From: Candidatus Aenigmatarchaeota archaeon
GTDB taxonomy: Archaea; Aenigmatarchaeota; Aenigmatarchaeia; Aenigmatarchaeales; JACQIB01
Length of the DNA stretch: 64,000 nt
Direction: 5' to 3'
Assembly (NCBI GenBank): GCA_016198755.1
Contig: JACQIB010000004.1
Coordinates: forward strand, 170,913 to 234,912
Below are positions 9,252 through 44,758 of the stretch, in pieces. The notes under the pieces are model-generated. The model was not told where the DNA came from and made no database searches. It saw only the letters and a list, made by a program, of their open reading frames with translations. A program made the translations under genes and the position numbers. The stretch's first letter is position 1; every line of letters begins with the position of its first letter.

Positions 9252-9851
9252 ATGATAGAGAAAAAACCTGTTGAAGCAAGAAAAGTAGTTCCGTTTAGAA
9301 TAGTTCCAAACACTCCTGGAGGATTAGGTGTGTATGTTAACAGTTCAATAGATAATCCAGATGGAGCAGAAATATCTGGTGAATTTTCCACTCTTTTACT
9401 GCCCAATATACGAGTAGAATCCGGTTCTGTATACGCAGTAGAAGGAACTAAAGCAATTTCGATGCTTCTAACAGGTCATGTGCCAAAGGGTGTAGATCTT
9501 ACAGAAATGTACATTGAAAAAGAACTTGCTGCTCAAGGACTTGGAACATATTACTTAAAAGTAGGGGATGTAAGCGATCATATAGACGTTTCATGGGCAA
9601 AGATGGGTACTCTAGATTTAACCCTTTCTACATATTGTCCAAGCCTTGATATGAGAAGGGGAATTTTTGATACACTAGACTTTGGGTATGATGTGAACAG
9701 AAAAGTTCGCGGGCTTGACTTGAGAAGCACTACAATAAAGAATGTAGAAGGTGTGTTGCCAGCTGACACATCTGATATACAAATGGATAAAAATACGAAT
9801 GTTCCTGAAAACTTAAGAGCATATTTGAAAAGAATGAGCGCTGTTATATAA
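9252..9851 (+). CDS. Hypothetical protein (199 aa). Its C-terminus (GVLPADTSD) weakly resembles the 40485-41072 paralog family.
   Basis: ORF; no motif. Confidence 0.4.
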   Translation: MIEKKPVEARKVVPFRIVPNTPGGLGVYVNSSIDNPDGAEISGEFSTLLLPNIRVESGSVYAVEGTKAISMLLTGHVPKGVDLTEMYIEKELAAQGLGTYYLKVGDVSDHIDVSWAKMGTLDLTLSTYCPSLDMRRGIFDTLDFGYDVNRKVRGLDLRSTTIKNVEGVLPADTSDIQMDKNTNVPENLRAYLKRMSAVI

Positions 9852-29912: not shown

Positions 29913-30701
29913 TCATGCTAGAAGCTTCGAAAAAGGTTTTATAATATTAATCAACTTATACACTGATTGATTAACAAGAACATCATTATATTCTTCCTTT
30001 ACAATATCTATAGCATCTTTTTGTATATTGCCTTCTAATATTGCTATCAATCTTACATAGGGATATTTTTGTCGAATTTTCATAGCTCTATAAGCAAGTT
30101 CTACGGCTTGCAAACGTTTCCTATAATTGAAATTCATTTGCTTTACCTCAATTATTATTTTGGGTATATTTTCAGAAGGCAAGGCAAAATCTACTACAAA
30201 ATTTCTATTGGTCCTCACTAGGGCATGAAACTTATGTGAAATGCCCAATTTCTGAAAGATTTCTATATATCTTTTTTCTTGTTCTGTAGGACCTTTTATT
30301 ATTGCACCTTTCAGAGATCTTTCTTTAGACGCCTTTAAACTCATTTTTCTTGCGCGTTCAGTATCTCTAAAAGTGCCGCGTTCGGAAATTTCATAATACC
30401 TGCGTATTAAGATTTCCCTAGAAGGAATTCTTTGCATGCATTTAATTTCTTCAAACACTTTGTTTATTACTTTTTCGTCTACACTTTTTCTAAATCCTTT
30501 CTCTATATTATAGACTGTGCCTTGACTCTTCCCTATAAACTTTGCTAATTGCCACTGACTCATATTCAATATTAAACGTAGAATCAGCAATCTCTGCGGT
30601 TTTGTATATATAATTTCAGGTTTCAGTTTCCTTAAACTGTCTGTTGTTCTATATACTTCATCACAGAGATTTTTTAATTTTAGCTTGTTTATGGTAATCA
30701 C
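29913..30701 (-). CDS. Intron-encoded putative homing endonuclease: N-terminal XRE-type HTH plus C-terminal PD-(D/E)XK nuclease-like domain (262 aa)
   Basis: HTH MSQWQLAKFIGKSQGTVYNIEKG; nuclease motif FVVDFALP...IIIEVKQ (D...E-x-K). Sits entirely inside the rRNA intron, with the stop overlapping the exon junction. Confidence 0.55.
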   Translation of the reverse strand: MITINKLKLKNLCDEVYRTTDSLRKLKPEIIYTKPQRLLILRLILNMSQWQLAKFIGKSQGTVYNIEKGFRKSVDEKVINKVFEEIKCMQRIPSREILIRRYYEISERGTFRDTERARKMSLKASKERSLKGAIIKGPTEQEKRYIEIFQKLGISHKFHALVRTNRNFVVDFALPSENIPKIIIEVKQMNFNYRKRLQAVELAYRAMKIRQKYPYVRLIAILEGNIQKDAIDIVKEEYNDVLVNQSVYKLINIIKPFSKLLA

Positions 30702-30757
30702 CGATATTATATTATATCGGTAACTACTATTTAACCCTTTACAGAGCTTCTAACTTT
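29916..30757 (-). mobile_element. 16S rRNA intron (about 840 nt) in the 3' domain, carrying an HTH + PD-(D/E)XK ORF
   Basis: Exon sequence ...GGCGAACGTCAT is interrupted and resumes ...GAATTCGTTCGCCGAATACGTCCCTG (the equivalent of E. coli position about 1360-1380). Confidence 0.7.
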
Positions 30758-31059
30758 ATGACGTTCGCCTACTATGAATTCCGGCTTCATGTGGGCGAGT
30801 TGCAGCCCACAATCTGGACTAAGATTGGGTTTAGGGGGTTAGCTTTGCCTTTCGGCATTGCATCCCATTGTCCCAACCATTGTAGGACGCGTGTAGCCCA
30901 GAGAATTCGGGCCGTACGGACCTACCGTCGCCCACTCCTTCCTCTGCTTTAGCAGCAGCGGTCCCGCCATTGTGCTCTCTCCCCGGAGGGAAAGGTGGCA
31001 AATGGCAGCGTGGGTCTCGCTCGTTAACGGACTTAACCGCACGCCTCAAGGTACGAGCT

Positions 31060-31219
31060 TTCTCGTCTTAGCAGCCCTCATACAAAACATTATCTTACTT
31101 TTCTCTATGTTTTACATAATTAGCATTCCACCAACGTCGTATCAGTATTAAGTTTGAATACTGGTTGCATATCGTTGTTGAAATTTTTCAATATCCCAAT
31201 TAAATTGAGACTGCCAAGA
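31060..31219 (-). other. Insertion of about 155 nt (ORF-less intron, likely BHB-type) in the 16S near the E. coli 1050-1070 region
   Basis: The conserved CATGGCCGTCGTCAGCTCGTACC is split: ...catggccatcgtca | 150 nt AT-rich | agctcgtaccttgagg. Flanking cttggcag/ctgctaag can pair to close the insert. Confidence 0.6.
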
Positions 31220-31763
31220 TGACGATGGCCATGCAACTCCTCTCAGCTTGTCTGGTAAACCCGTTAGGCTGACCCTCATTCTGCTGTCTTCTCTGGTAAG
31301 ATGTCCGGTGTTAAATCCAATTGAACCGCATCCTCCACTCATTGTGTGTTCCCCCGCCAATTCCTTTAAGTTTCAGCCTTGCGGCCGTACTCCCCAGGTG
31401 GCCCGCTTAACATCTACACTTCGGCACTGCATGTTCACGTAGAACGTGCAACACCAAGCGGGCATCGTTTACGGCTGGGACTACTGGGGTATCTAATCCC
31501 AATCGCTCCCCCAGCTGTCGCCCCTCACTGTCAGACTCGTTTTCGGTAGACGCCTTCGCCACAGGTGGTCCTCCACGGATTAAAGGATTTAACCCCTACA
31601 CGTGGAATACCTCTACCGTCTCCCGATCTCAAGGCTTGGAGTATCTCCAGCGCGCCTGACAGTTAGCTGCCAGATTTCACCAGAGACTTTCAAGCCCAGC
31701 TACGGGCGCTTTAGACCCAATAAACGCGATAGCCATTTGGACCGCGGGTATTACCGCGGCGGC

Positions 31764-31795
31764 GTGTGCGAACAAAGTCTACTGACTTTGAACAT
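31764..31795 (-). other. Hairpin insertion of about 30 nt inside the universal 515F/530-loop sequence of the 16S
   Basis: GTGCCA | tgttcaaagtc-agtag-gactttgttcgcaca | CGCCGCCGCGGTAATAC. The insert forms a 7-bp perfect stem, caaagtc/gactttg. Confidence 0.6.
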
Positions 31796-32249
31796 GGCAC
31801 CCGTCTTACCCAGTCCTTATTCGCCTAGGTTTTTAGCCTAAGCAAAAGCTCGTGCAAAGCACGAGCACTCGAGGTTCCCTTCTCACACGCTAATGCATTG
31901 GAAAGTTTTCGCTCCTGCTGCGACCCGTAGGCCCTGCGCTCATGTCTCAGAGCGCATCTGGAGGCTCACACTCTCATGTCCCCTACCCGTCACAGGCTTG
32001 TCAGTTTTATAAAGCAGGTAGCTTATGCTACCAAAAATTATTTTGGCAAACTAAGTTTGCCTATGCACTTTACACTGACAACAACCTGATAGGCCGCAGT
32101 CCCATTCTATGGCGCCGGAGCTTTCACTTTTGGTGCATTCCAGCATCCAAAAACTATGGGGCATTAGCCTCACTTTTGCGTTCACTTTCAAAAGAAAGTG
32201 GAATTCGCAAGATTATTCCCCACCATAGAGTAGGTTAACTACGTGTTAC

Positions 32250-32921
32250 TCAGCAGTGCGCCGAGGGCAAGAGCGGATTAAATAGAACCTTACCAGTCTT
32301 TTTACAATAAAAATAGTTTTTAAATTCCTTAGAAAGACATCTTACTTTTTCTAACTTTAGTGGATGTTTAAATTTTATTATTCTACAAAACTTTCTAAAA
32401 TTTTTAGCACCTTTTATTCGCCACCAATATACATCGTTTTTTCCATAAACTTTTGATACATGAATACCATATGTTTCTAATAATTCTTTACTCCATATGC
32501 AAAAATCCTTAGATTTAATTTGTAGTTCTATTACAGGATATTCATATATAGACATCATGGTCTTTCTCTTATACCTTTGGACTTCTTTGAATACGGAACA
32601 ATCACCATCAAAAAATCCTATAAGAAAATTCATCTTTTCTTTTCTATTTATGTGCACTGGTGGAGTGATGTCATGAGACTTTTTCCCTGGTTTTATATGA
32701 TAAAGTCTCTTAAATTTTTCGTATAGCTTACGATCACTTACCCTTATCTGAAATACTCTTTTTCTTAATTTGTAAGTAACCTTGTTTTTTGCAAATTTTT
32801 GAAGATTTTTTACTATATCATCTCTGAAGCGCTTGTTATTTGTGTAGACATAGACATACGGTCTATATTTTTCTAAATGACCATCTGCAGCTATTAAACC
32901 GGCCATATAAGAAAATTTCAT
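32250..32921 (-). CDS. LAGLIDADG-family homing endonuclease (double-motif, intron-encoded)
   Basis: Two LAGLIDADG motifs are present: MAGLIAADGHL and LIGFFDGDCSV. Confidence 0.85.
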   Translation of the reverse strand: MKFSYMAGLIAADGHLEKYRPYVYVYTNNKRFRDDIVKNLQKFAKNKVTYKLRKRVFQIRVSDRKLYEKFKRLYHIKPGKKSHDITPPVHINRKEKMNFLIGFFDGDCSVFKEVQRYKRKTMMSIYEYPVIELQIKSKDFCIWSKELLETYGIHVSKVYGKNDVYWWRIKGAKNFRKFCRIIKFKHPLKLEKVRCLSKEFKNYFYCKKTGKVLFNPLLPSAHC

Positions 32922-35456: not shown

Positions 35457-37277
35457 TTGATTGTGGCCAAGACACAGCTCTCGTTCTTTGAGATACTCTC
35501 GGTAACTATAGGCACTATACTTACAACAGCAGTGTTTTTGTTGCCAGGCCAGCTGGCTGCTGAGCATGGATTTTCCTCCCTATATATTTGGATTGCTATT
35601 GCTCTGTTAACAATACCAATAGGGCTTTCTTTTGCTGAATTGGCTGGTATGTTTTCACAGAGCGGAGGGCCTTTCATTTTTGTCAGGAAAGCTTTCGGAG
35701 ACTTTGCAGGATTTGTTGCAGGCTGGAGCACATGGGTTTACTCTACAATTGCTATTGCTGCACTTGCAAAAATCACTGGAAGTTATTTTTCCTTTCTTTT
35801 TCCACTTTCAGGATGGGGGATGGCTCTATTTTCTGTTGGGATTATAGGGATTTTTACCCTGATTAACCTGTTAGGGGCAAAACAGGGAGCTAAGGTAGAT
35901 ATGCTAATGATTTGGGTTTCAATTGGAATTGCGCTGCTTTTTGTTGTACTTGGCTTTGGAACAGTGGATATAACTAGGTTTTCAACTCTTCCTTCTGCTT
36001 CTTTGCCAGCGCTTGCTTTAGCTGGTATACTGGCTATGGAGCTGTTTATTGGCTGGGAATCTGCAACAATTATATCAGAAGAAGTTAAAAGTCCGAAAAG
36101 GCTCATACCTCGCGCTTTAGTATGGACAATTTTTATTGCAACAATAGTTTATCTTTCTGTTATTTTCGTTTTCCTTGGGAATGCTGATATTGGAAAAGTT
36201 TCTGAGAGCCTGAACCCGCTTGCTGAAACAGCAAAAAGCTTTGCTGGAGCTTTTGCGCCCGTGTTTTCAGTAGGAGCTGTAATAATAAGTCTTGCTGTTG
36301 TAAACAGCTGGATTCTGACTGTTGCCAGACTTCCATATGCAATGGCCAAAGGGAAGCTTTTCTTAAAATATTTTGAAAAAGAAAACAAGTACGGAGCTCC
36401 ATCTCATGCTCTGCTTCTGCAGTTCCTTTTTGCTTCTGCAGCTGTATTCTTCGATCTGGAGCATATTCTGCAGGTTTTGCTTTCAGTTGCCTTTATATTG
36501 TATATTGTAACCATGGCTGCCTTAATCAAATTGAGGAAAACAAATGAAAGCAGCTTTAAAGTCCCTAAAATACTTCCCTACATTGGAATTGCACTTCTGC
36601 TGGGAATGCTGATTTTTATTCCATGGGAAATACTTGCTGTGGGCTTGGTTTTGCTTTTTACTGGCCTTCCGGCTTTCTTTGTTGTCAAGCTTTTCACGGA
36701 CAGGGCTTTTGTGGAAGCTTACTGGGACAGGCTTGGAGGATTAATGGATGTCTATTTCCGCAGCCTGCTGGAAGGAGATATACTTGAAAAAGTTATATTA
36801 AATGCTGATATAAAGAAAAACCATACTGCACTGGATTATGGATGCGGTTCAGGGCATACAACAGATGATGTTGCAAAGCTGGCTGGGAAAGTTGTGGCCG
36901 CAGATCTATCTGTAAACCAGCTGCATAAAGCTGTTTCAAGCATACATAAAAAGGGTAATCTTACAAACATAATTTTTGTAAAACTCTCAAAACCAGCTCC
37001 TTTTGAAAAAGAAACCTTTGATAGAATTGTCTGCACACTTGCAACAAACTATTTTGTAAACCCTATAAAAGAATTTACAGCTCTTGCAAGGGTTTTGAAG
37101 CGGGGAGGAAAAGCCAGCTTTTTGTCTGTTCGCGCTGCAGGTATTCCGGAACATGATTTCCTGCACAAAGATGGCTCAATAAAATCTGTAATGATAAAAG
37201 CAGGATTTTCCAATATTGAAATAGAAAGGCTGAAAAAAGGACACAGGGAATATATGTTCATTGTTGCTGGCAAATAG
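35457..37277 (+). CDS. Fusion protein: APC-superfamily amino acid/polyamine permease (about 12 TM, residues 1-430) plus C-terminal class I SAM-dependent methyltransferase domain
   Basis: Hydrophobic N-terminal two-thirds with an APC-like GxxxAELA-type segment (FAELAGMFSQSGGPF). The C-terminus has SAM-binding motif I LDYGCGSGHTT and a post-I acidic residue. TTG/GTG start. Confidence 0.7.
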   Translation: MIVAKTQLSFFEILSVTIGTILTTAVFLLPGQLAAEHGFSSLYIWIAIALLTIPIGLSFAELAGMFSQSGGPFIFVRKAFGDFAGFVAGWSTWVYSTIAIAALAKITGSYFSFLFPLSGWGMALFSVGIIGIFTLINLLGAKQGAKVDMLMIWVSIGIALLFVVLGFGTVDITRFSTLPSASLPALALAGILAMELFIGWESATIISEEVKSPKRLIPRALVWTIFIATIVYLSVIFVFLGNADIGKVSESLNPLAETAKSFAGAFAPVFSVGAVIISLAVVNSWILTVARLPYAMAKGKLFLKYFEKENKYGAPSHALLLQFLFASAAVFFDLEHILQVLLSVAFILYIVTMAALIKLRKTNESSFKVPKILPYIGIALLLGMLIFIPWEILAVGLVLLFTGLPAFFVVKLFTDRAFVEAYWDRLGGLMDVYFRSLLEGDILEKVILNADIKKNHTALDYGCGSGHTTDDVAKLAGKVVAADLSVNQLHKAVSSIHKKGNLTNIIFVKLSKPAPFEKETFDRIVCTLATNYFVNPIKEFTALARVLKRGGKASFLSVRAAGIPEHDFLHKDGSIKSVMIKAGFSNIEIERLKKGHREYMFIVAGK

Positions 37278-38388: not shown

Positions 38389-38548
38389 TGGGGCCCGGAC
38401 CGAGATTTTCCCGCCCCACCTGAGGGGGTAGGGCTGTAGGGGGAAACTTCCCCCTGAGCTTTGAACTCGGGTCTAGGGCTGTCTGCTCCGCACGCCTTAA
38501 GCGCGCTGGGCCACAGGCCCACATGCTAACCACTACACCATCCGGGCC
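38389..38548 (-). tRNA. tRNA-His(GTG) with a genome-encoded G-1 and two introns (about 30 nt after position 37; about 54 nt in the T-loop); CCA encoded
   Basis: The minus strand reads G(-1) GCCCGGA TG GTGT AGTGGTTA GCAT G TGGGC CTGTGG [30-nt intron] A GCCCT AGAC CCGAG TTCAAAG [54-nt intron] CTCGG TCCGGGC C CCA. G-1:C73 is the hallmark of tRNA-His. Confidence 0.7.
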
Positions 38549-39244: not shown

Positions 39245-39343
39245 TCAAACTGGCTTTGCAGGGTATATTGCCACGTAAATCGCGCCAATAATTATAAGCG
39301 CAGCTAAAATAAACTGAACAATTCTTTTCAGGTTAATTACCAT
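39245..39343 (-). CDS. Hydrophobic 32-aa peptide MVINLKRIVQFILAALIIIGAIYVAIYPAKPV (single TM), 5 nt downstream of the Cys-rich peptide
   Basis: ATG...TGA. Tightly coupled to the upstream mini-ORF. Confidence 0.25.
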   Translation of the reverse strand: MVINLKRIVQFILAALIIIGAIYVAIYPAKPV

Positions 39344-39348
39344 TCAAA

Positions 39349-39429
39349 TCAACAGCAGCCACAGCCGCCCTTGCCTGAACAGTCCCCGCAACCGCAGGAA
39401 CTACCATGCTTTTTCTTTTCTTTTGCCAT
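39349..39429 (-). CDS. Cys-rich 26-aa peptide MAKEKKKHGSSCGCGDCSGKGGCGCC (metallothionein-like or RiPP-precursor-like); not in the ORF track (<60 aa)
   Basis: ATG start, TGA stop; 7 Cys in the last 15 residues. An AT-rich TATA-like stretch (ctttttatag) lies about 25 nt upstream on the coding strand. Confidence 0.35.
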   Translation of the reverse strand: MAKEKKKHGSSCGCGDCSGKGGCGCC

Positions 39430-39501: not shown

Positions 39502-39957
39502 ATGGCTCTTTCAGCACAAAGGTTGATGCCACCAGAGCCCAGAAGGGTGGCACCTATCACACCTGCAGAGCTGACAGATAGAGAAAGATTTGGCTGGCTT
39601 TACTCACCTCCGCGTGGAAAAACAGTTGGATTTGAGTATATAGAAGGGGATAAGTTTTGTCTTGTAGTTGGTGAATTAAGTTACAGAAAACCGCCAAAAT
39701 ATTCTACAAGAAAACCATATTCTATAGATGTTACATTTGCAAAATACGAAGGTAGGGTACTTGGAGATGTGCTGGACAATACTTCTGCACGCATAGCTCC
39801 GGAAGGGCTTTTGTTCCGTTCGCATACCCCTGTTCATCTGTCCAGAGATACATTTTTGGAAAAGGTGCAGACTGTGAAGGGAATTATCAAAGGGACTAAT
39901 GAACAGATAGATTATTTTGAAGGTATAGTTGAGGGAGAAAGATTTGCAGCAGACTAA
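39502..39957 (+). CDS. Hypothetical protein, member 1 of a tandem three-gene paralog family (151 aa)
   Basis: Shares GK(T/N)VG(F/I)(E/A)Y, CL(V/L)xVG and ID(V/Y)x(F/L)(A/K)(K/F)(Y/A)(E/N)G blocks with 40485-41072. C-terminal DTFLEKV resembles 39992-40471 (ADFLREV). Confidence 0.5.
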   Translation: MALSAQRLMPPEPRRVAPITPAELTDRERFGWLYSPPRGKTVGFEYIEGDKFCLVVGELSYRKPPKYSTRKPYSIDVTFAKYEGRVLGDVLDNTSARIAPEGLLFRSHTPVHLSRDTFLEKVQTVKGIIKGTNEQIDYFEGIVEGERFAAD

Positions 39958-39991
39958 TGGTTTATTAACCTTTTCTATTGAATAGGATTCT

Positions 39992-40471
39992 ATGGGTATG
40001 GGAGGTTGGGGCATTTGGTTTGCCTTAAAAACTGCTGCAGAACAGGAAACAGCTACTAAGGCAAAATATGAAGTGGTGTTCCCTATAGCTGACATTTTAA
40101 GGCCAGCAGAATATGAGAGGTTCATAAATTGGGTAGGTCATAGGGCAGTTGGAGTTGGTTATGTTAATCCAGACCCTACTATGCCGCAGATGCAACTTGC
40201 AGTTGGTAAACTATCTACTATAGCTCCAACGGGAGGAAAACAGGACATTTCACTTAATTTTGATGGGGAAGGAACAGTGCTTTCAGCAGGTAGTATTTTT
40301 CACTCCGGAACAATGGAACTCCCTAAAAACACTCCTGTATATACGGGAAAGGCAGATTTTCTGCGAGAGGTAAGGAAACTGGACCCGCTTGTAAATTCTA
40401 GAAGGGTTGTGAGAGAACCTTATGAAGCGTTTATGAAAAAAGTGGAAGAGAGCAGGTTCCCGTTCCAGTAG
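39992..40471 (+). CDS. Hypothetical protein, member 2 of the tandem paralog family (159 aa)
   Basis: C-terminal similarity to member 1; same strand with a 35-nt spacing. Confidence 0.45.
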   Translation: MGMGGWGIWFALKTAAEQETATKAKYEVVFPIADILRPAEYERFINWVGHRAVGVGYVNPDPTMPQMQLAVGKLSTIAPTGGKQDISLNFDGEGTVLSAGSIFHSGTMELPKNTPVYTGKADFLREVRKLDPLVNSRRVVREPYEAFMKKVEESRFPFQ

Positions 40472-40484
40472 TTTCTGGAAAGTA

Positions 40485-41072
40485 ATGGGTTTTTATCCTT
40501 TCTTATATAATAACTTTCTTATGGGAATTCTTGGTTGGAGGAATGGAACGCGACACGAGCCTAGGACAAAGCCAACCAATGGACAGACAGCAGTCAATTA
40601 TCAGCAAAAACTTTATGTTAGCTCTCTGCTGGATCAAGCAAACCAACCAGCCTATAGGCAGCGGCTTGTTGGGAAAAATGTTGGAATTGCATACGAACAA
40701 CCTTCTGGAACAGAACCCTGTTTACTTTCTGTTGGAACAGTTATGACACCGCCAGAAGGTGTTATGCCTTGGAGACATATAAATAAAGATGGGATAGATT
40801 ATGTTGAACTAAAGTTTGCAAATGGTATTTCTGTAGATAGGAATAGACTGAAAGTTAATGTTACTGCAGTAAAGGCCGATACTGTTGGGGTAAATGCTGA
40901 TACTAGTGCAGAACCGTTCCTGCCAAGTGCTGTTATTTGTACTAGGAGAAAGGAATTCGCAGATTTAGCTGACAGAGTTGCTGGACTTATAATGCGAGAT
41001 ATGACTATGCAAGTTAGAATGGAGGATTATTATACTATACTGAATAAAGCCAATAAAGATCTGGAAATATAA
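40485..41072 (+). CDS. Hypothetical protein, member 3 of the tandem paralog family (195 aa)
   Basis: Motif similarity to member 1; 13-nt spacing from member 2. Confidence 0.5.
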   Translation: MGFYPFLYNNFLMGILGWRNGTRHEPRTKPTNGQTAVNYQQKLYVSSLLDQANQPAYRQRLVGKNVGIAYEQPSGTEPCLLSVGTVMTPPEGVMPWRHINKDGIDYVELKFANGISVDRNRLKVNVTAVKADTVGVNADTSAEPFLPSAVICTRRKEFADLADRVAGLIMRDMTMQVRMEDYYTILNKANKDLEI

Positions 41073-41115
41073 CAATAGAATAGAGTTTAAAAGCAGGCTT
41101 TTAGAATTAGTTTAT

Positions 41116-43710
41116 ATGCCTGAGGTCTGGGAAATAACTGCTGGTGAGGTTTTAAAAGAGTTAAATGGTTCTGAAGCTGGGTTAAGAACAGAAGAGGCGC
41201 AGCGCAGGCTGAAAAAATTTGGGCCAAACACAATAGAAAGAAAGCATGGACATGGCCCGTTAACAATTTTTGCAGAGCAGTTCAAGAGCTTTTTGGTTTT
41301 GCTTTTGGTTTTTGCAGCTGTAATTTCAGTTTTTTTCGGGGAGTTTATTGACTCTGCTGCTATAGCTATAATATTAGTTATAAATGCATTGTTAGGATTC
41401 TGGCAGGAATATAAGTCTGAAAAAGCCATAGAAGCCATTAAGAAAATGGTTGTTGAAAGAGCTATTGTTCTGAGGGATGGGACTAAATTGGAAATTCCAG
41501 CTGAAGAGCTTGTGCTGGGAGATATTGTTTTTATAGAAGCTGGTGAAAGAATACCAGCAGATATAAGGATTTTGCAGAGTTTTGGATTAAGGCTGGATGA
41601 ATCTATACTTACAGGAGAGTCTGTTTCTGTTGGAAAAATTACAGAAAAAGTACAGGGAAAACAACTGGGAGACAGAAAAAATATGCTTTACATGGGAACT
41701 TTGGCTGTTGAAGGTACAGGAAAAGGTGTTGTTGTAAGCACAGGTTCAGGAACAGAAATGGGAAAAATAGCAAAACTTATAGAAGAACCTGAGGAACCTA
41801 CAAAATTCCAGAAAGATATGGATAAGTTCGGGAAGAGAGTAGGCTATATAATAGTGGTTATTGCACTGGCTGTTTTCCTTTTGGATATGCTGCGCGGTGC
41901 TGGTCCAGTTAACTCTGCACTCATTGCAATAACTTTGGCTGTGGCAGCTGTGCCCGAAGGTTTGCCTGCTGTTGTAACAATAACCCTTGCAATAGGAATC
42001 CAAAAAATGGCAAAAAGAAACGCTTTCGTGCGCAGATTATCCTCAGTGGAAAGTTTGGGTATGATAACTGTTATTTGCGCTGACAAGACAGGCACAATGA
42101 CTTCTAACCAAATGACAGTCAGGAAAATATGGGCTAAAGGAAAGGAAATTGATATTACTGGTCTGGGCTATACTCCTGAAGGGAAATTTTTAGACGGGAA
42201 GAAAGAAACAACACTTGGAAAGGAAGAACTTTTGCTTTTGCGCACTGGTATGCTCTGTAATAATGCTGCACTCAGGCAAAATAAAGGCTGGGAAATTATT
42301 GGTGACCCGACTGAAGGGGCATTAATTGTAGCTGCTGAAAAAGCAGGTGTTAATGTGAAAGTGGAGAGAATATATGAAATACCCTTTAGCTCTGAAAGGA
42401 AGATGATGAGTGTTGTTTCTAAAGAAAAAGACGGTTTGTATGTGTATACAAAGGGAGCGCCGGAAATTATTCTTAATCATTGTATAAGAGAAATCGGAGG
42501 GCAGATGACATCAAGTAAAAAATACAATATACAGGAAGAGTTCAGGAAAATGGCTGAATCCGGTTTAAGGGTGCTTGCTCTGGCTTACAAACCTTTTGAT
42601 GGGAATCTGAAACGAGCAGAAGAAGGCTTGGTTTTCATTGGATTAGTAGGTATGATTGATCCTCCAACAGAAGAAACAAAACATTCTGTAGCTGTCTGTA
42701 AGGAAGCTGGTATAAGGCCAATAATGATAACAGGAGATCATTTGCTTACAGCAAAAGCAATATCAAAAGAAGTTGGTATAGAAGGAGAAGCTGTTACAGG
42801 GGAGGATTTGGAAAAGACAGATGAGGAATTGACAAAAACTCTGGATAATATTTCTATATTCGCAAGGGTTTCCCCGCTACAGAAGCTAAAAATTATAGAA
42901 GCTCTGCATAAGCGCGGAGAACTGGTTTCAATGACAGGAGATGGTGTGAATGATGCACCGGCTCTGAAAAAGGCTGATGTTGGAGTTGCTATGGGCAGGA
43001 GAGGAAGCGATGCAGCCAGAGAAGCTTCAGATATAGTGCTTGCTGATGATAATTTTTCAACTATTGTTTATGCTGTGGAAGAGGGGAGGGGAATTTTTGA
43101 CAATATAAAGAAATTTGTACATTATCTTATAGGAGCGAATATTGCAGAAGTTCTGGCTGTCCTTGGTTCCTTAGTATTTTTCCTTCCACTGCCCTTTACT
43201 CCATTGCAGCTTTTATGGATAAATCTTACAACAGATGGTTTGCCTGCATTGGCGCTGGGCTTTGAGAAAAAACAGAAAGAAATAATGAAAGAAAAGCCAA
43301 AAGGAACTGAATCTGGTATATTGAAAGGGAGCTGGAGTTTCCTGTTTGCTGTAGCTGTTGTAGGTGCTGCAGCAGTTCTTTTTAGCCTGTTCCTCACACT
43401 TCCTCAGGGAATTGAAAAAGCCCGCACCGTGGCGTTCACAACAATGACGTTTTTTGAGTTGTTCCTCGTTTTCAGCATACACGCTGGAAAAGATGGGCTG
43501 TTAAAAGCAAACCCATTCTCAAACACTAAGCTTGTGCTGGCTGTATTAACTTCAGTTTTGCTTCAACTCTTAGTTATTTATTTTGTTCCTCTACAGACAC
43601 TTTTCGATACAGTTCCACTCGCTTTAGGCGATTGGCTAACTATTTTGCTCTTGTCTGCGACAGGTCTATTTGTTTCTCCAAAGCTTTTCCTCGAGAAAAA
43701 TCAGGTTTAA
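41116..43710 (+). CDS. P-type ATPase, type IIA (Ca2+/cation-transporting)
   Basis: DKTGT(M)T phosphorylation site; PEGLP in TM4; TGDGVNDAPALKKADVGVAMG hinge; TGES actuator motif. Confidence 0.9.
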   Translation: MPEVWEITAGEVLKELNGSEAGLRTEEAQRRLKKFGPNTIERKHGHGPLTIFAEQFKSFLVLLLVFAAVISVFFGEFIDSAAIAIILVINALLGFWQEYKSEKAIEAIKKMVVERAIVLRDGTKLEIPAEELVLGDIVFIEAGERIPADIRILQSFGLRLDESILTGESVSVGKITEKVQGKQLGDRKNMLYMGTLAVEGTGKGVVVSTGSGTEMGKIAKLIEEPEEPTKFQKDMDKFGKRVGYIIVVIALAVFLLDMLRGAGPVNSALIAITLAVAAVPEGLPAVVTITLAIGIQKMAKRNAFVRRLSSVESLGMITVICADKTGTMTSNQMTVRKIWAKGKEIDITGLGYTPEGKFLDGKKETTLGKEELLLLRTGMLCNNAALRQNKGWEIIGDPTEGALIVAAEKAGVNVKVERIYEIPFSSERKMMSVVSKEKDGLYVYTKGAPEIILNHCIREIGGQMTSSKKYNIQEEFRKMAESGLRVLALAYKPFDGNLKRAEEGLVFIGLVGMIDPPTEETKHSVAVCKEAGIRPIMITGDHLLTAKAISKEVGIEGEAVTGEDLEKTDEELTKTLDNISIFARVSPLQKLKIIEALHKRGELVSMTGDGVNDAPALKKADVGVAMGRRGSDAAREASDIVLADDNFSTIVYAVEEGRGIFDNIKKFVHYLIGANIAEVLAVLGSLVFFLPLPFTPLQLLWINLTTDGLPALALGFEKKQKEIMKEKPKGTESGILKGSWSFLFAVAVVGAAAVLFSLFLTLPQGIEKARTVAFTTMTFFELFLVFSIHAGKDGLLKANPFSNTKLVLAVLTSVLLQLLVIYFVPLQTLFDTVPLALGDWLTILLLSATGLFVSPKLFLEKNQV

Positions 43711-43735: not shown

Positions 43736-44758
43736 ATGACTTCGATATCAGCTCTGGCTGGCAGTAGGCAAGTAGGTGGGATGCTCGGCAACACTGAAAG
43801 GTTTGTAGTCACGCAAACAGACAGCCAGGAAACCTTTGTAGATAACCATGGTCCATACCAGAAGGATGGGAACGCACTTAAAACAAGGTATTTGGGCAGA
43901 TGCCTTGTAATGGGCACTGGCCAGGGATATCTTATTGAACATGCTACAGATAATTCACACATATTAGAACAGGATACACCAAAAGAGGTTGCAGAAAAAC
44001 TTTTTGAAACGACAAACGGGAGAGAATATGGAACAAAGGGTCTGTCTTTTATAGTTGCCGGGAATGATGGGAAAACCTCAGAAATCTACCATGTACACGC
44101 TTCCCCAAAGAAAAGCAGGAGGGTATCAGGACCAGTTGGTTGGATATTTGACGGGTCTGGGGCAAGGTTAATGAGGCCTGCATTTGAGAGAGATATAAAA
44201 AATGGAGCGCTTAATCTAAATATGGGCACCCTTCAGATGAGCATGGCAGATCTTATCTCATATCAGTGGAATCTTGGGGACAATGCAGCAAATGATATAG
44301 GTGTGAACGATAGGTGGGAAGTTGGATTGGTTACTCCTGATAAAATACGGACTCTTATAAGCCCAACAGTTCCTTTATGGAGCACAGCTCTTGAGGAGTA
44401 TATACAGCTTAATTTAGGTGTGAACGTAACAGATTCGGAAAAGATGGGTCCTTTCTGGGGGGTAATGAACGACCTGCACCATGCGATAGAAATAGGATGC
44501 AGGAGACTGGGTCAGGCAGATTATAGGCTAAATCAAACCTTCGGTAATCAAAAATACAGACCCGCTGGTAATAGGGTAGACGAACTGATTAAAAGCAAGC
44601 TCTCTGAGAGGGATGAAGAACGCAGAAAACTGGGTGTTCTGGTTGATGCATGGTATTCTGGAGAGTTGGAAACTGTTGTAACTGCTCTTGATATGTTTAG
44701 CGATGAAAGGAAAACTATGAGAACGAAGGCAGTGGAAATTGCAAGACAAGCTGCTTAA
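43736..44758 (+). CDS. Proteasome-beta/HslV-like Ntn-hydrolase homolog (Thr2 after Met) with a roughly 150-aa C-terminal extension; paralog of 21750-22832
   Basis: MT-SISALAG; RFVVTQTDSQ; LKTRYLGRCLVMGTGQG; GLSFIVAGNDGKTSEIYHVHASP...VSGPVGWIFDGSGA. This is a strong match to the proteasome beta pattern GLIVAGWD..GPQLY.IDPSG....A.GSGS. Confidence 0.55.
   Translation: MTSISALAGSRQVGGMLGNTERFVVTQTDSQETFVDNHGPYQKDGNALKTRYLGRCLVMGTGQGYLIEHATDNSHILEQDTPKEVAEKLFETTNGREYGTKGLSFIVAGNDGKTSEIYHVHASPKKSRRVSGPVGWIFDGSGARLMRPAFERDIKNGALNLNMGTLQMSMADLISYQWNLGDNAANDIGVNDRWEVGLVTPDKIRTLISPTVPLWSTALEEYIQLNLGVNVTDSEKMGPFWGVMNDLHHAIEIGCRRLGQADYRLNQTFGNQKYRPAGNRVDELIKSKLSERDEERRKLGVLVDAWYSGELETVVTALDMFSDERKTMRTKAVEIARQAA

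What the first reader, a model, noticed from the sequence alone, without database searches (positions are those of the whole stretch)
39502..41072. Tandem triplication of a small, relatively GC-rich protein family of unknown function
Three same-strand ORFs (151, 159 and 195 aa) with 13-35-nt spacers share sequence blocks. Members 1 and 3 share GK(T/N)VG(F/I)xY, CLxxVG and IDxx(F/L)xK(Y/F)xG. Members 1 and 2 share the C-terminal (D/A)(T/D)FL(E/R)(K/E)V. They are visibly richer in G/R/P codons than the flanking AT-rich genes and are wedged between a HAD phosphatase/tRNA-His and the P-type ATPase. 9252-9851 may be a distant relative (shared GV.ADTS block). Candidate explanations are an expanding lineage-specific family (surface or structural), an acquired cassette, or virus-derived structural genes.
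Basis: partly seen in the sequence, partly recalled or inferred. Interest (0 to 1): 0.6.

Follow-up and report, generated by a model that had tools for sequence, protein, structure and literature searches.

The report
Orphan three-gene paralog family, Aenigmarchaeota
Three neighbouring small genes in this Aenigmarchaeota (DPANN archaeon) genome are real, very old duplicates of one another, found in only about three related genomes and matching no known protein or fold, so they are an ordinary lineage-restricted orphan family of unknown function and not foreign or viral DNA.

Summary
The three same-strand ORFs exist: M1 39502-39957, M2 39992-40471, and M3, whose true start is 40521, not 40485. 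They are distant paralogues at about 20-25% identity. M2 links the other two: Smith-Waterman shuffle P is about 7e-4 for M1-M2 and 6e-4 for M2-M3, while M1-M3 alone is not significant. Leave-one-family-out profile comparisons give E of 1e-4 or lower over about 105 collinear columns.

The window is a Candidatus Aenigmarchaeota MAG. An exhaustive HMM search of 1.84 billion representatives found only one cluster per paralogue, from about three related lineages. Nothing matched in Pfam, NCBIfam, PHROGs, PADLOC, PDB, BFVD or IMG/VR.

The "GC-rich" impression comes from amino-acid composition (high Gly+Arg+Pro). GC3, codon usage and tetranucleotide content are typical, and the genes sit in a conserved chromosomal backbone, always just upstream of a SERCA/PMR1-like P-type ATPase. 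One lineage has lost M2, and one of its variants carries a stop codon in M3.

The genes are under purifying selection (dN/dS 0.2-0.3). They encode soluble alpha+beta proteins with no conserved catalytic residues, and each has its own promoter-like box. ORF 9252-9851 is unrelated.

Function is unknown. The best guess is non-enzymatic, partly redundant oligomer subunits. Interest is modest.

The parts
39502..39957 (+). M1, 151 aa. It is the most conserved paralogue (78% and 63% identity to its two orthologues). It is soluble, with pI 7.8.
   Evidence: ORF. Orthologues. The start at MA(L/V/I)SAQR is conserved in all three lineages. dN/dS is 0.22. The AF2 model has pLDDT 81 and pTM 0.76.
39992..40471 (+). 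M2, 159 aa. It is the bridging paralogue, similar to both M1 and M3. It is absent from the third lineage.
   Evidence: Absence in L007-L013 is shown. The AF2 model has pLDDT 72 and pTM 0.62.
40521..41072 (+). M3, 183 aa.
   Evidence: dN/dS is 0.27 against L012.
39960..39971 (+). TATA-like box (GGTTTATTAACC) centred about 28 nt upstream of the M2 ATG.
   Evidence: Sequence. Across the window's genes, A/T content peaks at -28/-27 from start codons. Function as a promoter is inferred.
40487..40498 (+). TATA-like box (GGGTTTTTATCC) centred about 28 nt upstream of the M3 ATG at 40521. It is conserved in L001 and L008.
   Evidence: Function as a promoter is inferred.
41116..43710 (+). P2-type (SERCA/PMR1-like) cation ATPase, 864 aa. 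It is the invariable downstream neighbour of the family in all three lineages and has its own TATA-like box at 41086-41093. A functional link is inferred only.
   Evidence: NCBIfam TIGR01522 scores 700 bits and TIGR01116 679 bits, both below their curated cut-offs. Synteny. Upstream alignment.
39349..39429 (-). Conserved 26-aa Cys-rich micro-ORF (MAKEKKKHGSSCGCGDCSGKGGCGCC), divergent from M1. It is present next to M1 in all three lineages. It is context; a link to the trio is inferred only.
   Evidence: pN/pS is 0.07-0.18. PF12669 E is 1.7, not significant.
39245..39343 (-). Conserved 32-aa single-transmembrane micro-ORF (MVINLKRIVQFILAALIIIGAIYVAIYPAKPV), directly downstream of the Cys-rich micro-ORF. 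It is context.
   Evidence: pN/pS is 0.04-0.13. The Kyte-Doolittle 19-residue maximum is 2.75.

Best explanation
M1, M2 and M3 are three anciently diverged tandem paralogues of a taxonomically restricted orphan protein family, inherited vertically in a small clade of Aenigmarchaeota.

**Shown**
- They are real protein-coding genes under purifying selection.
- They share one collinear architecture: one or two short N-terminal helices, a long beta-hairpin carrying the G(K/R)xVGxxY...LxVG signature, three or four further strands, and two C-terminal helices.
- They have native composition and lie in a conserved chromosomal neighbourhood.
- Copy number varies between close relatives: three genes in two lineages, and two in the third, where one variant has a stop codon in M3.

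**Inferred**
- Each gene is transcribed from its own TATA box as a leaderless mRNA.
- The products are soluble cytoplasmic proteins that are not enzymes. The only invariant residues are Gly, Pro, Val, Leu, Tyr, Phe and one Glu.
- They most likely act as partly interchangeable subunits of a homo- or hetero-oligomeric binding or scaffold assembly.

**My estimates**
- Paralogy by tandem duplication: about 0.9.
- Soluble, non-enzymatic, oligomer-forming: about 0.5.
- Working together with the adjacent cation-pump module (ATPase plus the two micro-proteins): about 0.2.
For: **Paralogy**
- Smith-Waterman shuffle tests.
- hhalign: M2 vs M3 E 7.8e-5 over 122 columns; M1 vs (M2+M3) 1.4e-4; M3 vs (M1+M2) 6.9e-5.
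- A collinear six-sequence alignment with 11 invariant columns.
- A held-out orthologue scores 108 bits on the joint HMM, while unrelated window ORFs score below 6 bits.
- The M1 and M2 AF2 models have the same order of secondary-structure elements. Both used the same alignment, so they are not independent.

**Real genes**
- dN/dS is 0.22 for M1, 0.27 for M3 and about 0.34 for M2.

**Restricted distribution**
-.

**Native origin and synteny**
-.

**Copy-number change**
-.

**Own promoters**
-.

**Soluble**
-.

**No known family or fold**
-.
Against: - The direct M1-M3 similarity is not significant.
- The profiles are shallow, at two or three sequences per subfamily.
- Nothing tests oligomerisation or any activity.
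- Loss of M2 and a nonsense variant of M3 in one lineage, with an intact ATPase, argue against an obligatory role with the pump.
- The genomes are close relatives (ATPase 80-91% identical), so conserved adjacency is weak evidence of a functional link.
Confidence: 0.6

Rival explanations
1. The three proteins are accessory or regulatory components of the adjacent SERCA/PMR1-like P2-type ATPase. They may act together with the conserved 32-aa transmembrane micro-protein and the 26-aa Cys-rich micro-protein, forming one cation-homeostasis module.
For: - In all three lineages the block has the same order: [Cys-rich ORF, TM ORF] divergent from [M1, (M2), M3], then the ATPase. This holds even though the genes further upstream differ: HAD in the window, an aminotransferase in L001, an F420-type oxidoreductase in L008.
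- Between the window and L001 the micro-ORFs are more conserved than the ATPase at the protein level.
- From my own knowledge, not tested here: single-TM micro-proteins regulate P-type ATPases elsewhere (sarcolipin and phospholamban for SERCA, KdpF, MgtS/MgtR).
Against: - Each gene, including the ATPase, has its own TATA-like box at the position typical for this genome, so an operon is not required.
- M2 is lost and M3 is interrupted in one variant of a lineage whose ATPase is intact and 91% identical.
- The three lineages are too closely related for synteny to be informative.
- The trio evolves 2-3 times faster than the pump.
- No soluble accessory subunit of a prokaryotic P2 ATPase is known to me.
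Confidence: 0.2
2. They are a conflict-type array, for example immunity-like or anti-toxin-like proteins. Such arrays are small, fast-evolving tandem paralogues whose copy number varies between strains.
For: - Copy number differs between close relatives, and one variant is pseudogene-like.
- dN/dS is higher than in the neighbours.
- The surrounding region is a hot spot for insertion of toxin-antitoxin pairs: HicAB in L008, and a nucleotidyltransferase pair downstream of the ATPase in L001.
- The taxonomic range is extremely narrow.
Against: - There is no toxin or effector gene next to the array in any lineage.
- There are no PADLOC hits.
- The orthologues are strictly one-to-one and positionally conserved, and selection is purifying, not diversifying.
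Confidence: 0.08
3. They are an acquired cassette or virus-derived structural genes, as the first reader proposed as an alternative.
For: - A tRNA-His gene lies about 1 kb upstream; tRNA genes are common integration sites.
- The proteins have no cellular homologues.
- Gene-level GC is slightly raised: M1 0.424 and M2 0.436, against a gene mean of 0.397.
Against: - GC3 is below the window's gene mean.
- Codon-usage distance (0.34, against 0.39 +/- 0.05 for other genes) and tetranucleotide distance (65th percentile) are typical.
- There is no integrase or repeat boundary.
- The same position is kept in three lineages, within a long syntenic backbone.
- There is nothing significant in PHROGs (best E 0.096), BFVD (best E 0.013, TM 0.32) or three IMG/VR scans.
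Confidence: 0.04
4. The similarity is chance, and these are three unrelated orphan ORFs that merely sit side by side.
For: - M1-M3 is not significant directly.
- Identities are only 19-25%.
- The profiles are built from two or three sequences each.
Against: - Six independent M2/M3 and M1/M2 pairings within and across genomes give P of 1e-4 to 8e-3, while all six control pairings with two unrelated window ORFs give P above 0.3.
- Leave-one-out profile E-values are about 1e-4 with more than 100 collinear columns.
- Length, orientation, adjacency and predicted order of secondary-structure elements all agree.
Confidence: 0.06

Closest known systems
Taxonomically restricted (orphan) gene families expanded by tandem duplication, as are common in DPANN archaeal genomes
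   Same: - The phylogenetic range is very narrow.
- There is no hit to any curated family.
- The genes are small proteins arranged as same-strand tandem paralogues.
- Copy number differs between close relatives.
   Different: This is a description of a phenomenon, not a functional family, so it says nothing about mechanism. Here the duplication is old (20-25% identity between copies) and the copies are kept under purifying selection.
Small-protein regulators of P-type ATPases (sarcolipin and phospholamban for SERCA; KdpF, MgtS and MgtR in bacteria); recalled from my own knowledge
   Same: A conserved 32-aa single-TM micro-ORF and the trio lie immediately beside a SERCA/PMR1-like ATPase in every lineage that has them.
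   Different: - The trio proteins are soluble and 150-180 aa long, not membrane micro-peptides.
- No sequence similarity was tested or is expected.
- The link is positional only, and one lineage dispenses with M2.
Sm-like / Pelota N-terminal domain fold (the top, non-significant Foldseek matches)
   Same: Both have an N-terminal helix followed by a bent antiparallel sheet. Sm proteins also form rings from paralogous subunits.
   Different: - Foldseek E is 0.057-1.0 and query TM-score 0.22-0.31.
- The family has two extra C-terminal helices.
- It is not a member on present evidence.
PF12669, FeoB-associated Cys-rich membrane protein (relevant to the neighbouring micro-ORFs only)
   Same: A Lys-rich stretch is followed by a CGC/GGC-type Cys cluster, with a single TM helix encoded nearby.
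   Different: - E is 1.7 and the score 9.4 bits, against a 27-bit cut-off.
- Here the Cys-rich and TM parts are two separate ORFs in the opposite order.
- No FeoB gene lies nearby.

Membership tests
One paralogous family comprising M1, M2 and M3 | Pairwise or profile similarity beyond chance, collinear over most of the length | tested here: met
   - M1-M2 P 7e-4 and M2-M3 P 6e-4.
- A2 vs A10 E 7.8e-5 over 122 columns.
- Leave-one-out E 1.4e-4 and 6.9e-5.
- Direct M1-M3 is not significant (P 0.3); that link is transitive only.
One paralogous family comprising M1, M2 and M3 | Same predicted fold | tested here: inconclusive
   The M1 and M2 AF2 models have the same order of elements: helix, hairpin, strands, then two helices. 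Both used the same joint alignment. M3 was not modelled, and the models could not be superposed.
   - Smith-Waterman P is 0.35-0.66.
- The family HMM scores -0.6 bits.
- The shared block lies in a genome-specific insertion of M3.
Any curated protein family (Pfam-A, NCBIfam) | Profile HMM match at or near the curated threshold | tested here: not met
   There were no hits, even at E <= 10 for all six family members against Pfam and at E <= 1 against NCBIfam.
Virus or phage structural proteins | Homologues in viral protein families, viral structure predictions or viral contigs | tested here: not met
   - PHROGs best E is 0.096.
- BFVD best E is 0.013 with query TM-score 0.32, to unnamed phage proteins.
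- Three IMG/VR scans found no locus.
Horizontally acquired cassette | Atypical composition or codon usage, and mobile-element boundaries | tested here: not met
   - GC3 is at the 14th-40th percentile.
- Codon distance is 0.34 against 0.39 +/- 0.05.
- Tetranucleotide distance is at the 65th percentile.
- The backbone is syntenic in three lineages.
- There are no flanking repeats.
Known anti-phage defence systems | Match to a PADLOC-DB model | tested here: not met
   There were no hits at E <= 1.
Sm-like (LSm) proteins | Sm1/Sm2 sequence motifs or a significant fold match | tested here: not met
   hhalign E is 0.44 over 6 columns. Foldseek TM-scores are at most 0.31 and E at least 0.057.
Operon or accessory subunits of the P2-type ATPase | Co-transcription with, and conserved linkage to, the ATPase across divergent genomes | tested here: inconclusive
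   Linkage is conserved in all three lineages, but these are close relatives. The ATPase has its own TATA-like box at about -27. M2 is dispensable in one lineage. Transcript data are not available.
Secreted or surface proteins | Signal peptide or transmembrane segment | tested here: not met
   The maximum Kyte-Doolittle 19-residue window is 0.54-0.80. No dedicated signal-peptide predictor was available.

The most novel reading that the evidence does not exclude
The trio, the 32-aa transmembrane micro-protein and the 26-aa Cys-rich micro-protein form, with the SERCA/PMR1-like pump, a previously undescribed multi-component P2-type ATPase module in DPANN archaea. In it the soluble paralogues, which have a fold not seen in the PDB, would act as cytoplasmic regulators or metal/cation-handling partners of the pump.
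Probability: 0.1. Interest if true: 0.6.

Novelty: new member of a known kind. Interest (0 to 1): 0.3.

Why it matters
At the protein-family level this is new. There is no relative in 15 billion proteins outside about three Aenigmarchaeota lineages. Foldseek found no PDB match for a model with pTM 0.76. As a phenomenon it is ordinary: DPANN genomes are full of lineage-restricted hypothetical proteins, and tandem paralogues are common.

Its value is mainly practical. It gives a clean, well-delimited orphan family with defined starts, invariant residues, orthologues and a natural M2-loss variant, which could be taken to structure determination. Only if the positional link to the SERCA-like pump and the two conserved micro-proteins proved functional would it bear on a wider question, namely how prokaryotic P2-type ATPases are regulated.

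Tried and rejected
- **Link to 9252-9851 and to the 340-aa ORF 43736-44758.** No similarity was found.
- **Hits P0007 and P0009 from the exhaustive search.**
  - P0007 is a 2646-aa repeat protein matched in 15 stretches. P0009 is an 865-aa LPxTG-type repeat protein matched in 5 stretches.
  - Both match only the C-terminal helical part of the profile, and the scores are inflated by repeats. I treat them as not homologous.
- **Sm-like fold idea.** It came from the top Foldseek hits and was rejected by hhalign.
- **Spacers upstream of M2 and M3 as duplicated units.**
  - They share GGTTT(A/T)TTA(A/T)CC, which looked like a copied promoter plus gene.
  - The same box lies at about -27 before the ATPase, D340 and most genes of the window. 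It is therefore the organism's generic promoter and not evidence of duplication.
- **Genome collection scans.** GTDB species representatives returned nothing with either the M2 or the M1 patterns. The joint alignment was too divergent to seed a scan.
- **Look-ups with no record.** P0004 and the 32-aa micro-ORF product are not on record.
- **Literature.** A search for Aenigmarchaeota plus P-type ATPase gave nothing relevant.
- **Micro-ORFs against PF12669 and NCBIfam.** No match was significant.
Full report
**What is at the coordinates**

The window is from a Candidatus Aenigmarchaeota MAG. The three proteins are NCBI HY362_03285, HY362_03290 and HY362_03295. The window also carries an archaeal SSU rRNA gene.

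Three same-strand ORFs occupy 39502-39957 (M1, 151 aa), 39992-40471 (M2, 159 aa) and 40485/40521-41072 (M3).

- The M1 start at MA(L/V/I)SAQR is conserved in all three lineages that carry the gene.
- M3 begins at 40521 (MGILGW, 183 aa). In the closest relative the upstream 12 codons have no start codon, and NCBI also aa.
- The spacers are therefore 34 nt (M1-M2), 49 nt (M2-M3) and 43 nt (M3-ATPase).

**Are the three proteins related?**

Yes, but the evidence runs through M2.

- Smith-Waterman scores against 1000 shuffles give Gumbel P of 7e-4 for M1-M2 and 6e-4 for M2-M3.
- Cross-genome M2/M3 pairs give 1e-4 to 7e-4. M1-M3 gives 0.3.
- The six control pairings of M1-M3 with two unrelated ORFs of the window give P of 0.35-0.87.
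- Profile-profile comparison of the orthologue alignments gives:
  - M2 vs M3: E 7.8e-5 over 122 columns.
  - M1 vs M2: E 0.054.
  - M1 vs M3: E 0.15-0.4.
- Leave-one-family-out profiles give 1.4e-4 for M1 against M2+M3 (104 columns) and 6.9e-5 for M3 against M1+M2 (108 columns).
- A joint alignment is collinear from end to end. Its invariant columns are M1, V53, G54, Y57, L69, G72, P79, F90, G100, F123 and E142 in M2 numbering.
- An HMM built from that alignment scores a held-out orthologue at 108 bits. It scores nothing else in six-frame translations of the window and two related loci above 6 bits.
- AlphaFold2 models of M2 (pLDDT 72, pTM 0.62) and M1 (pLDDT 81, pTM 0.76) have the same order of elements: short N-terminal helices, a long beta-hairpin carrying the GxxVGxxY...LxVG signature, three or four further strands, and two C-terminal helices. 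Both used the same shallow alignment, and only one of five models was confident in each case.

The pair it leaned on most (M1-M3) is the weakest, and its third block is one residue out of register.

**Composition**

- The region is 41.0% GC against 39.8% for the window, which is the 75th percentile of equal-sized windows.
- M1 and M2 are at the 86th-94th percentile of gene GC, but their GC3 is at the 24th-40th percentile. M3's GC3 is at the 14th percentile.
- The Gly+Arg+Pro fraction is at the 88th-98th percentile.
- Codon-usage distance (0.34, against 0.39 +/- 0.05) and tetranucleotide distance (65th percentile) are unremarkable.

The 'GC-rich' look is an amino-acid effect, not a sign of foreign DNA.

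**Distribution**

- Word-indexed searches of 5.8 billion clusters found only the proteins themselves and one or two orthologues each.
- An exhaustive HMMER search of 1.84 billion representatives with the joint profile found one cluster per paralogue and a fragment. It also found two long repeat proteins that match only the C-terminal helices through many repeats, which I discount.
- Scans of GTDB species genomes found nothing.
- A metagenome scan found one further lineage.
- Three IMG/VR scans found nothing.
- There are no hits in Pfam, NCBIfam, PHROGs, PADLOC or PDB sequences.
- Foldseek against PDB and BFVD gave nothing at E < 1e-3, and TM-scores of at most 0.32.

**Comparative anatomy**

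Three lineages carry the family.

- **L001 (GCA_053536735.1).** It has M1-M2-M3 followed by the same 864-aa ATPase. Identities to the window are M1 63%, M2 51%, M3 56%, HAD 55%, DJ-1 75% and ATPase 80%.
- **L007-L013.** This lineage is seen in several ENA and JGI assemblies. Its M1 is 78% identical and its ATPase 91% identical to the window's. Its M1 is followed 35 nt later by M3, and then by the ATPase and DJ-1. M2 is cleanly absent.
  - One assembly has an AGA-to-TGA nonsense change in M3 that another lacks.
  - L001 is the more distant genome and has M2, so M2 was lost in this lineage.

The triplication is therefore old and is not expanding.

dN/dS is 0.22 (M1), 0.27 (M3) and about 0.34 (M2, with dS near saturation). 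The ATPase is at 0.08-0.12. These are real genes under moderate constraint.

The wider backbone is syntenic: HAD, trio, ATPase, DJ-1, a 1170-aa protein, then RtcA-like genes. Lineage-specific insertions lie between these blocks.

**Transcription (inferred)**

- Across 52 crude gene calls in the window, A/T content peaks at -28/-27 from the ATG (0.90 and 0.87). All-A/T octamers peak at -27.5 to -25.5. This is the pattern expected for archaeal TATA boxes driving leaderless mRNAs.
- M2, M3, the ATPase and the 340-aa ORF each have a GGTTT(A/T)(A/T)... box at that position.
- Each gene probably has its own promoter.
- The spacer similarity between M2 and M3 is generic to the organism. It is not evidence of duplication.

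**What the proteins probably are**

- They have no hydrophobic segment; the Kyte-Doolittle 19-residue maximum is 0.8 or lower.
- Their pI is 7.8-8.9.
- No His, Cys, Asp or Ser is conserved across the family. The only polar invariant residue is E142.

I read them as soluble, non-enzymatic alpha+beta proteins. Paralogous subunits kept side by side, one of which can be lost, fit partly redundant subunits of a homo- or hetero-oligomer. That step is inference.

The positional link to the ATPase is constant, but the three lineages are close relatives. The pump also has its own promoter-like box and stays intact where M2 is lost and M3 is interrupted. I give the pump-accessory reading about 0.2.

**Neighbours worth noting**

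- Two micro-ORFs lie divergent from M1, on the minus strand, in all three lineages. One is a 26-aa Cys-rich peptide and the other a 32-aa single-TM peptide. Their pN/pS is 0.04-0.18 at pS 0.34-0.81, so they are translated and strongly constrained. Their weak resemblance to PF12669 is not significant.
- The GC-rich block at 38389-38548 (-) is a tRNA-His(GTG) with genome-encoded G-1 and CCA and two introns. ARAGORN calls it only after both introns are removed.

**Verdict**

The 'lineage-specific family' reading is supported. The cassette, virus and 9252-9851 readings are not.
- The family is new at the level of protein classification, but it is an ordinary kind of thing for a DPANN genome.
- Interest: 0.3.

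Noticed in passing
window 39349-39429 (-) and 39245-39343 (-); L001 9340-9420 (-) and 9235-9330 (-); L007 2025-2105 (-) and 1921-2019 (-): Two micro-ORFs lie divergent from M1 and are conserved in all three lineages, although the genes further upstream differ. One is a 26-aa Cys-rich peptide (MAKEKKKHGxSCGCxDCxGKGGCxCC) and the other a 32-aa single-TM peptide (MVINLKRxVQFILAAxIIIGAIYVAxYPA). pN/pS is 0.04-0.18 with many synonymous changes, so they are real micro-proteins. The PF12669 (FeoB-associated Cys-rich) resemblance is not significant (E 1.7). They might be small partners of the neighbouring SERCA-like ATPase, but that is speculation.
   Followed up: partly
window 38389-38548 (-): This is a tRNA-His(GTG) gene with genome-encoded G-1 and CCA, interrupted by two introns. 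One is 30 nt at the canonical 37/38 site (38481-38510) and the other 54 nt in the T-arm (38405-38458). ARAGORN and Rfam miss the gene as it stands. ARAGORN calls it once both introns are removed.
   Followed up: yes
window 43736-44758 (+): This 340-aa ORF has no Pfam, NCBIfam, PHROG or PADLOC hit. It is inserted between the ATPase and DJ-1 only in this genome. L008 has nothing there, and L001 has a 132-aa ORF plus a nucleotidyltransferase gene. The site appears to be a hot spot for lineage-specific insertions.
   Followed up: partly
window 40857-40898 (within M3): A 14-codon insertion (KVNVTAVKADTVGV) is found only in this genome's M3. Its DNA partly repeats the upstream GKNVG-coding stretch (repeat D4, 40667-40683 and 40883-40899, 82% identical), which suggests a local duplication.
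   Followed up: no
window 30689-32314 (-): The archaeal SSU rRNA gene spans 1626 nt against a 1478-nt model, so it carries insertions. No LSU rRNA gene was found anywhere in the 64-kb window, so the rRNA genes are unlinked.
   Followed up: no
L008 3018-3457 and 3367-3810; L007 435-874 and 784-1227: In the third lineage a HicB/HicA toxin-antitoxin pair sits where the 3' part of the HAD hydrolase gene should be. That leaves a 147-aa truncated HAD ORF overlapping hicA.
   Followed up: no
window-wide, about -27 nt from start codons: A/T content peaks sharply at -28/-27 from ATG codons across about 50 genes. This implies that most genes of this Aenigmarchaeote are transcribed as leaderless mRNAs from GGTTT(A/T)(A/T)(A/T)-type boxes.
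   Followed up: partly
window 35457-37277 (+): This 606-aa ORF looks like an amino-acid permease-type membrane domain fused to a C-terminal methyltransferase-like domain (DYGCGSG motif). That is judged by eye from the translation only.
   Followed up: no
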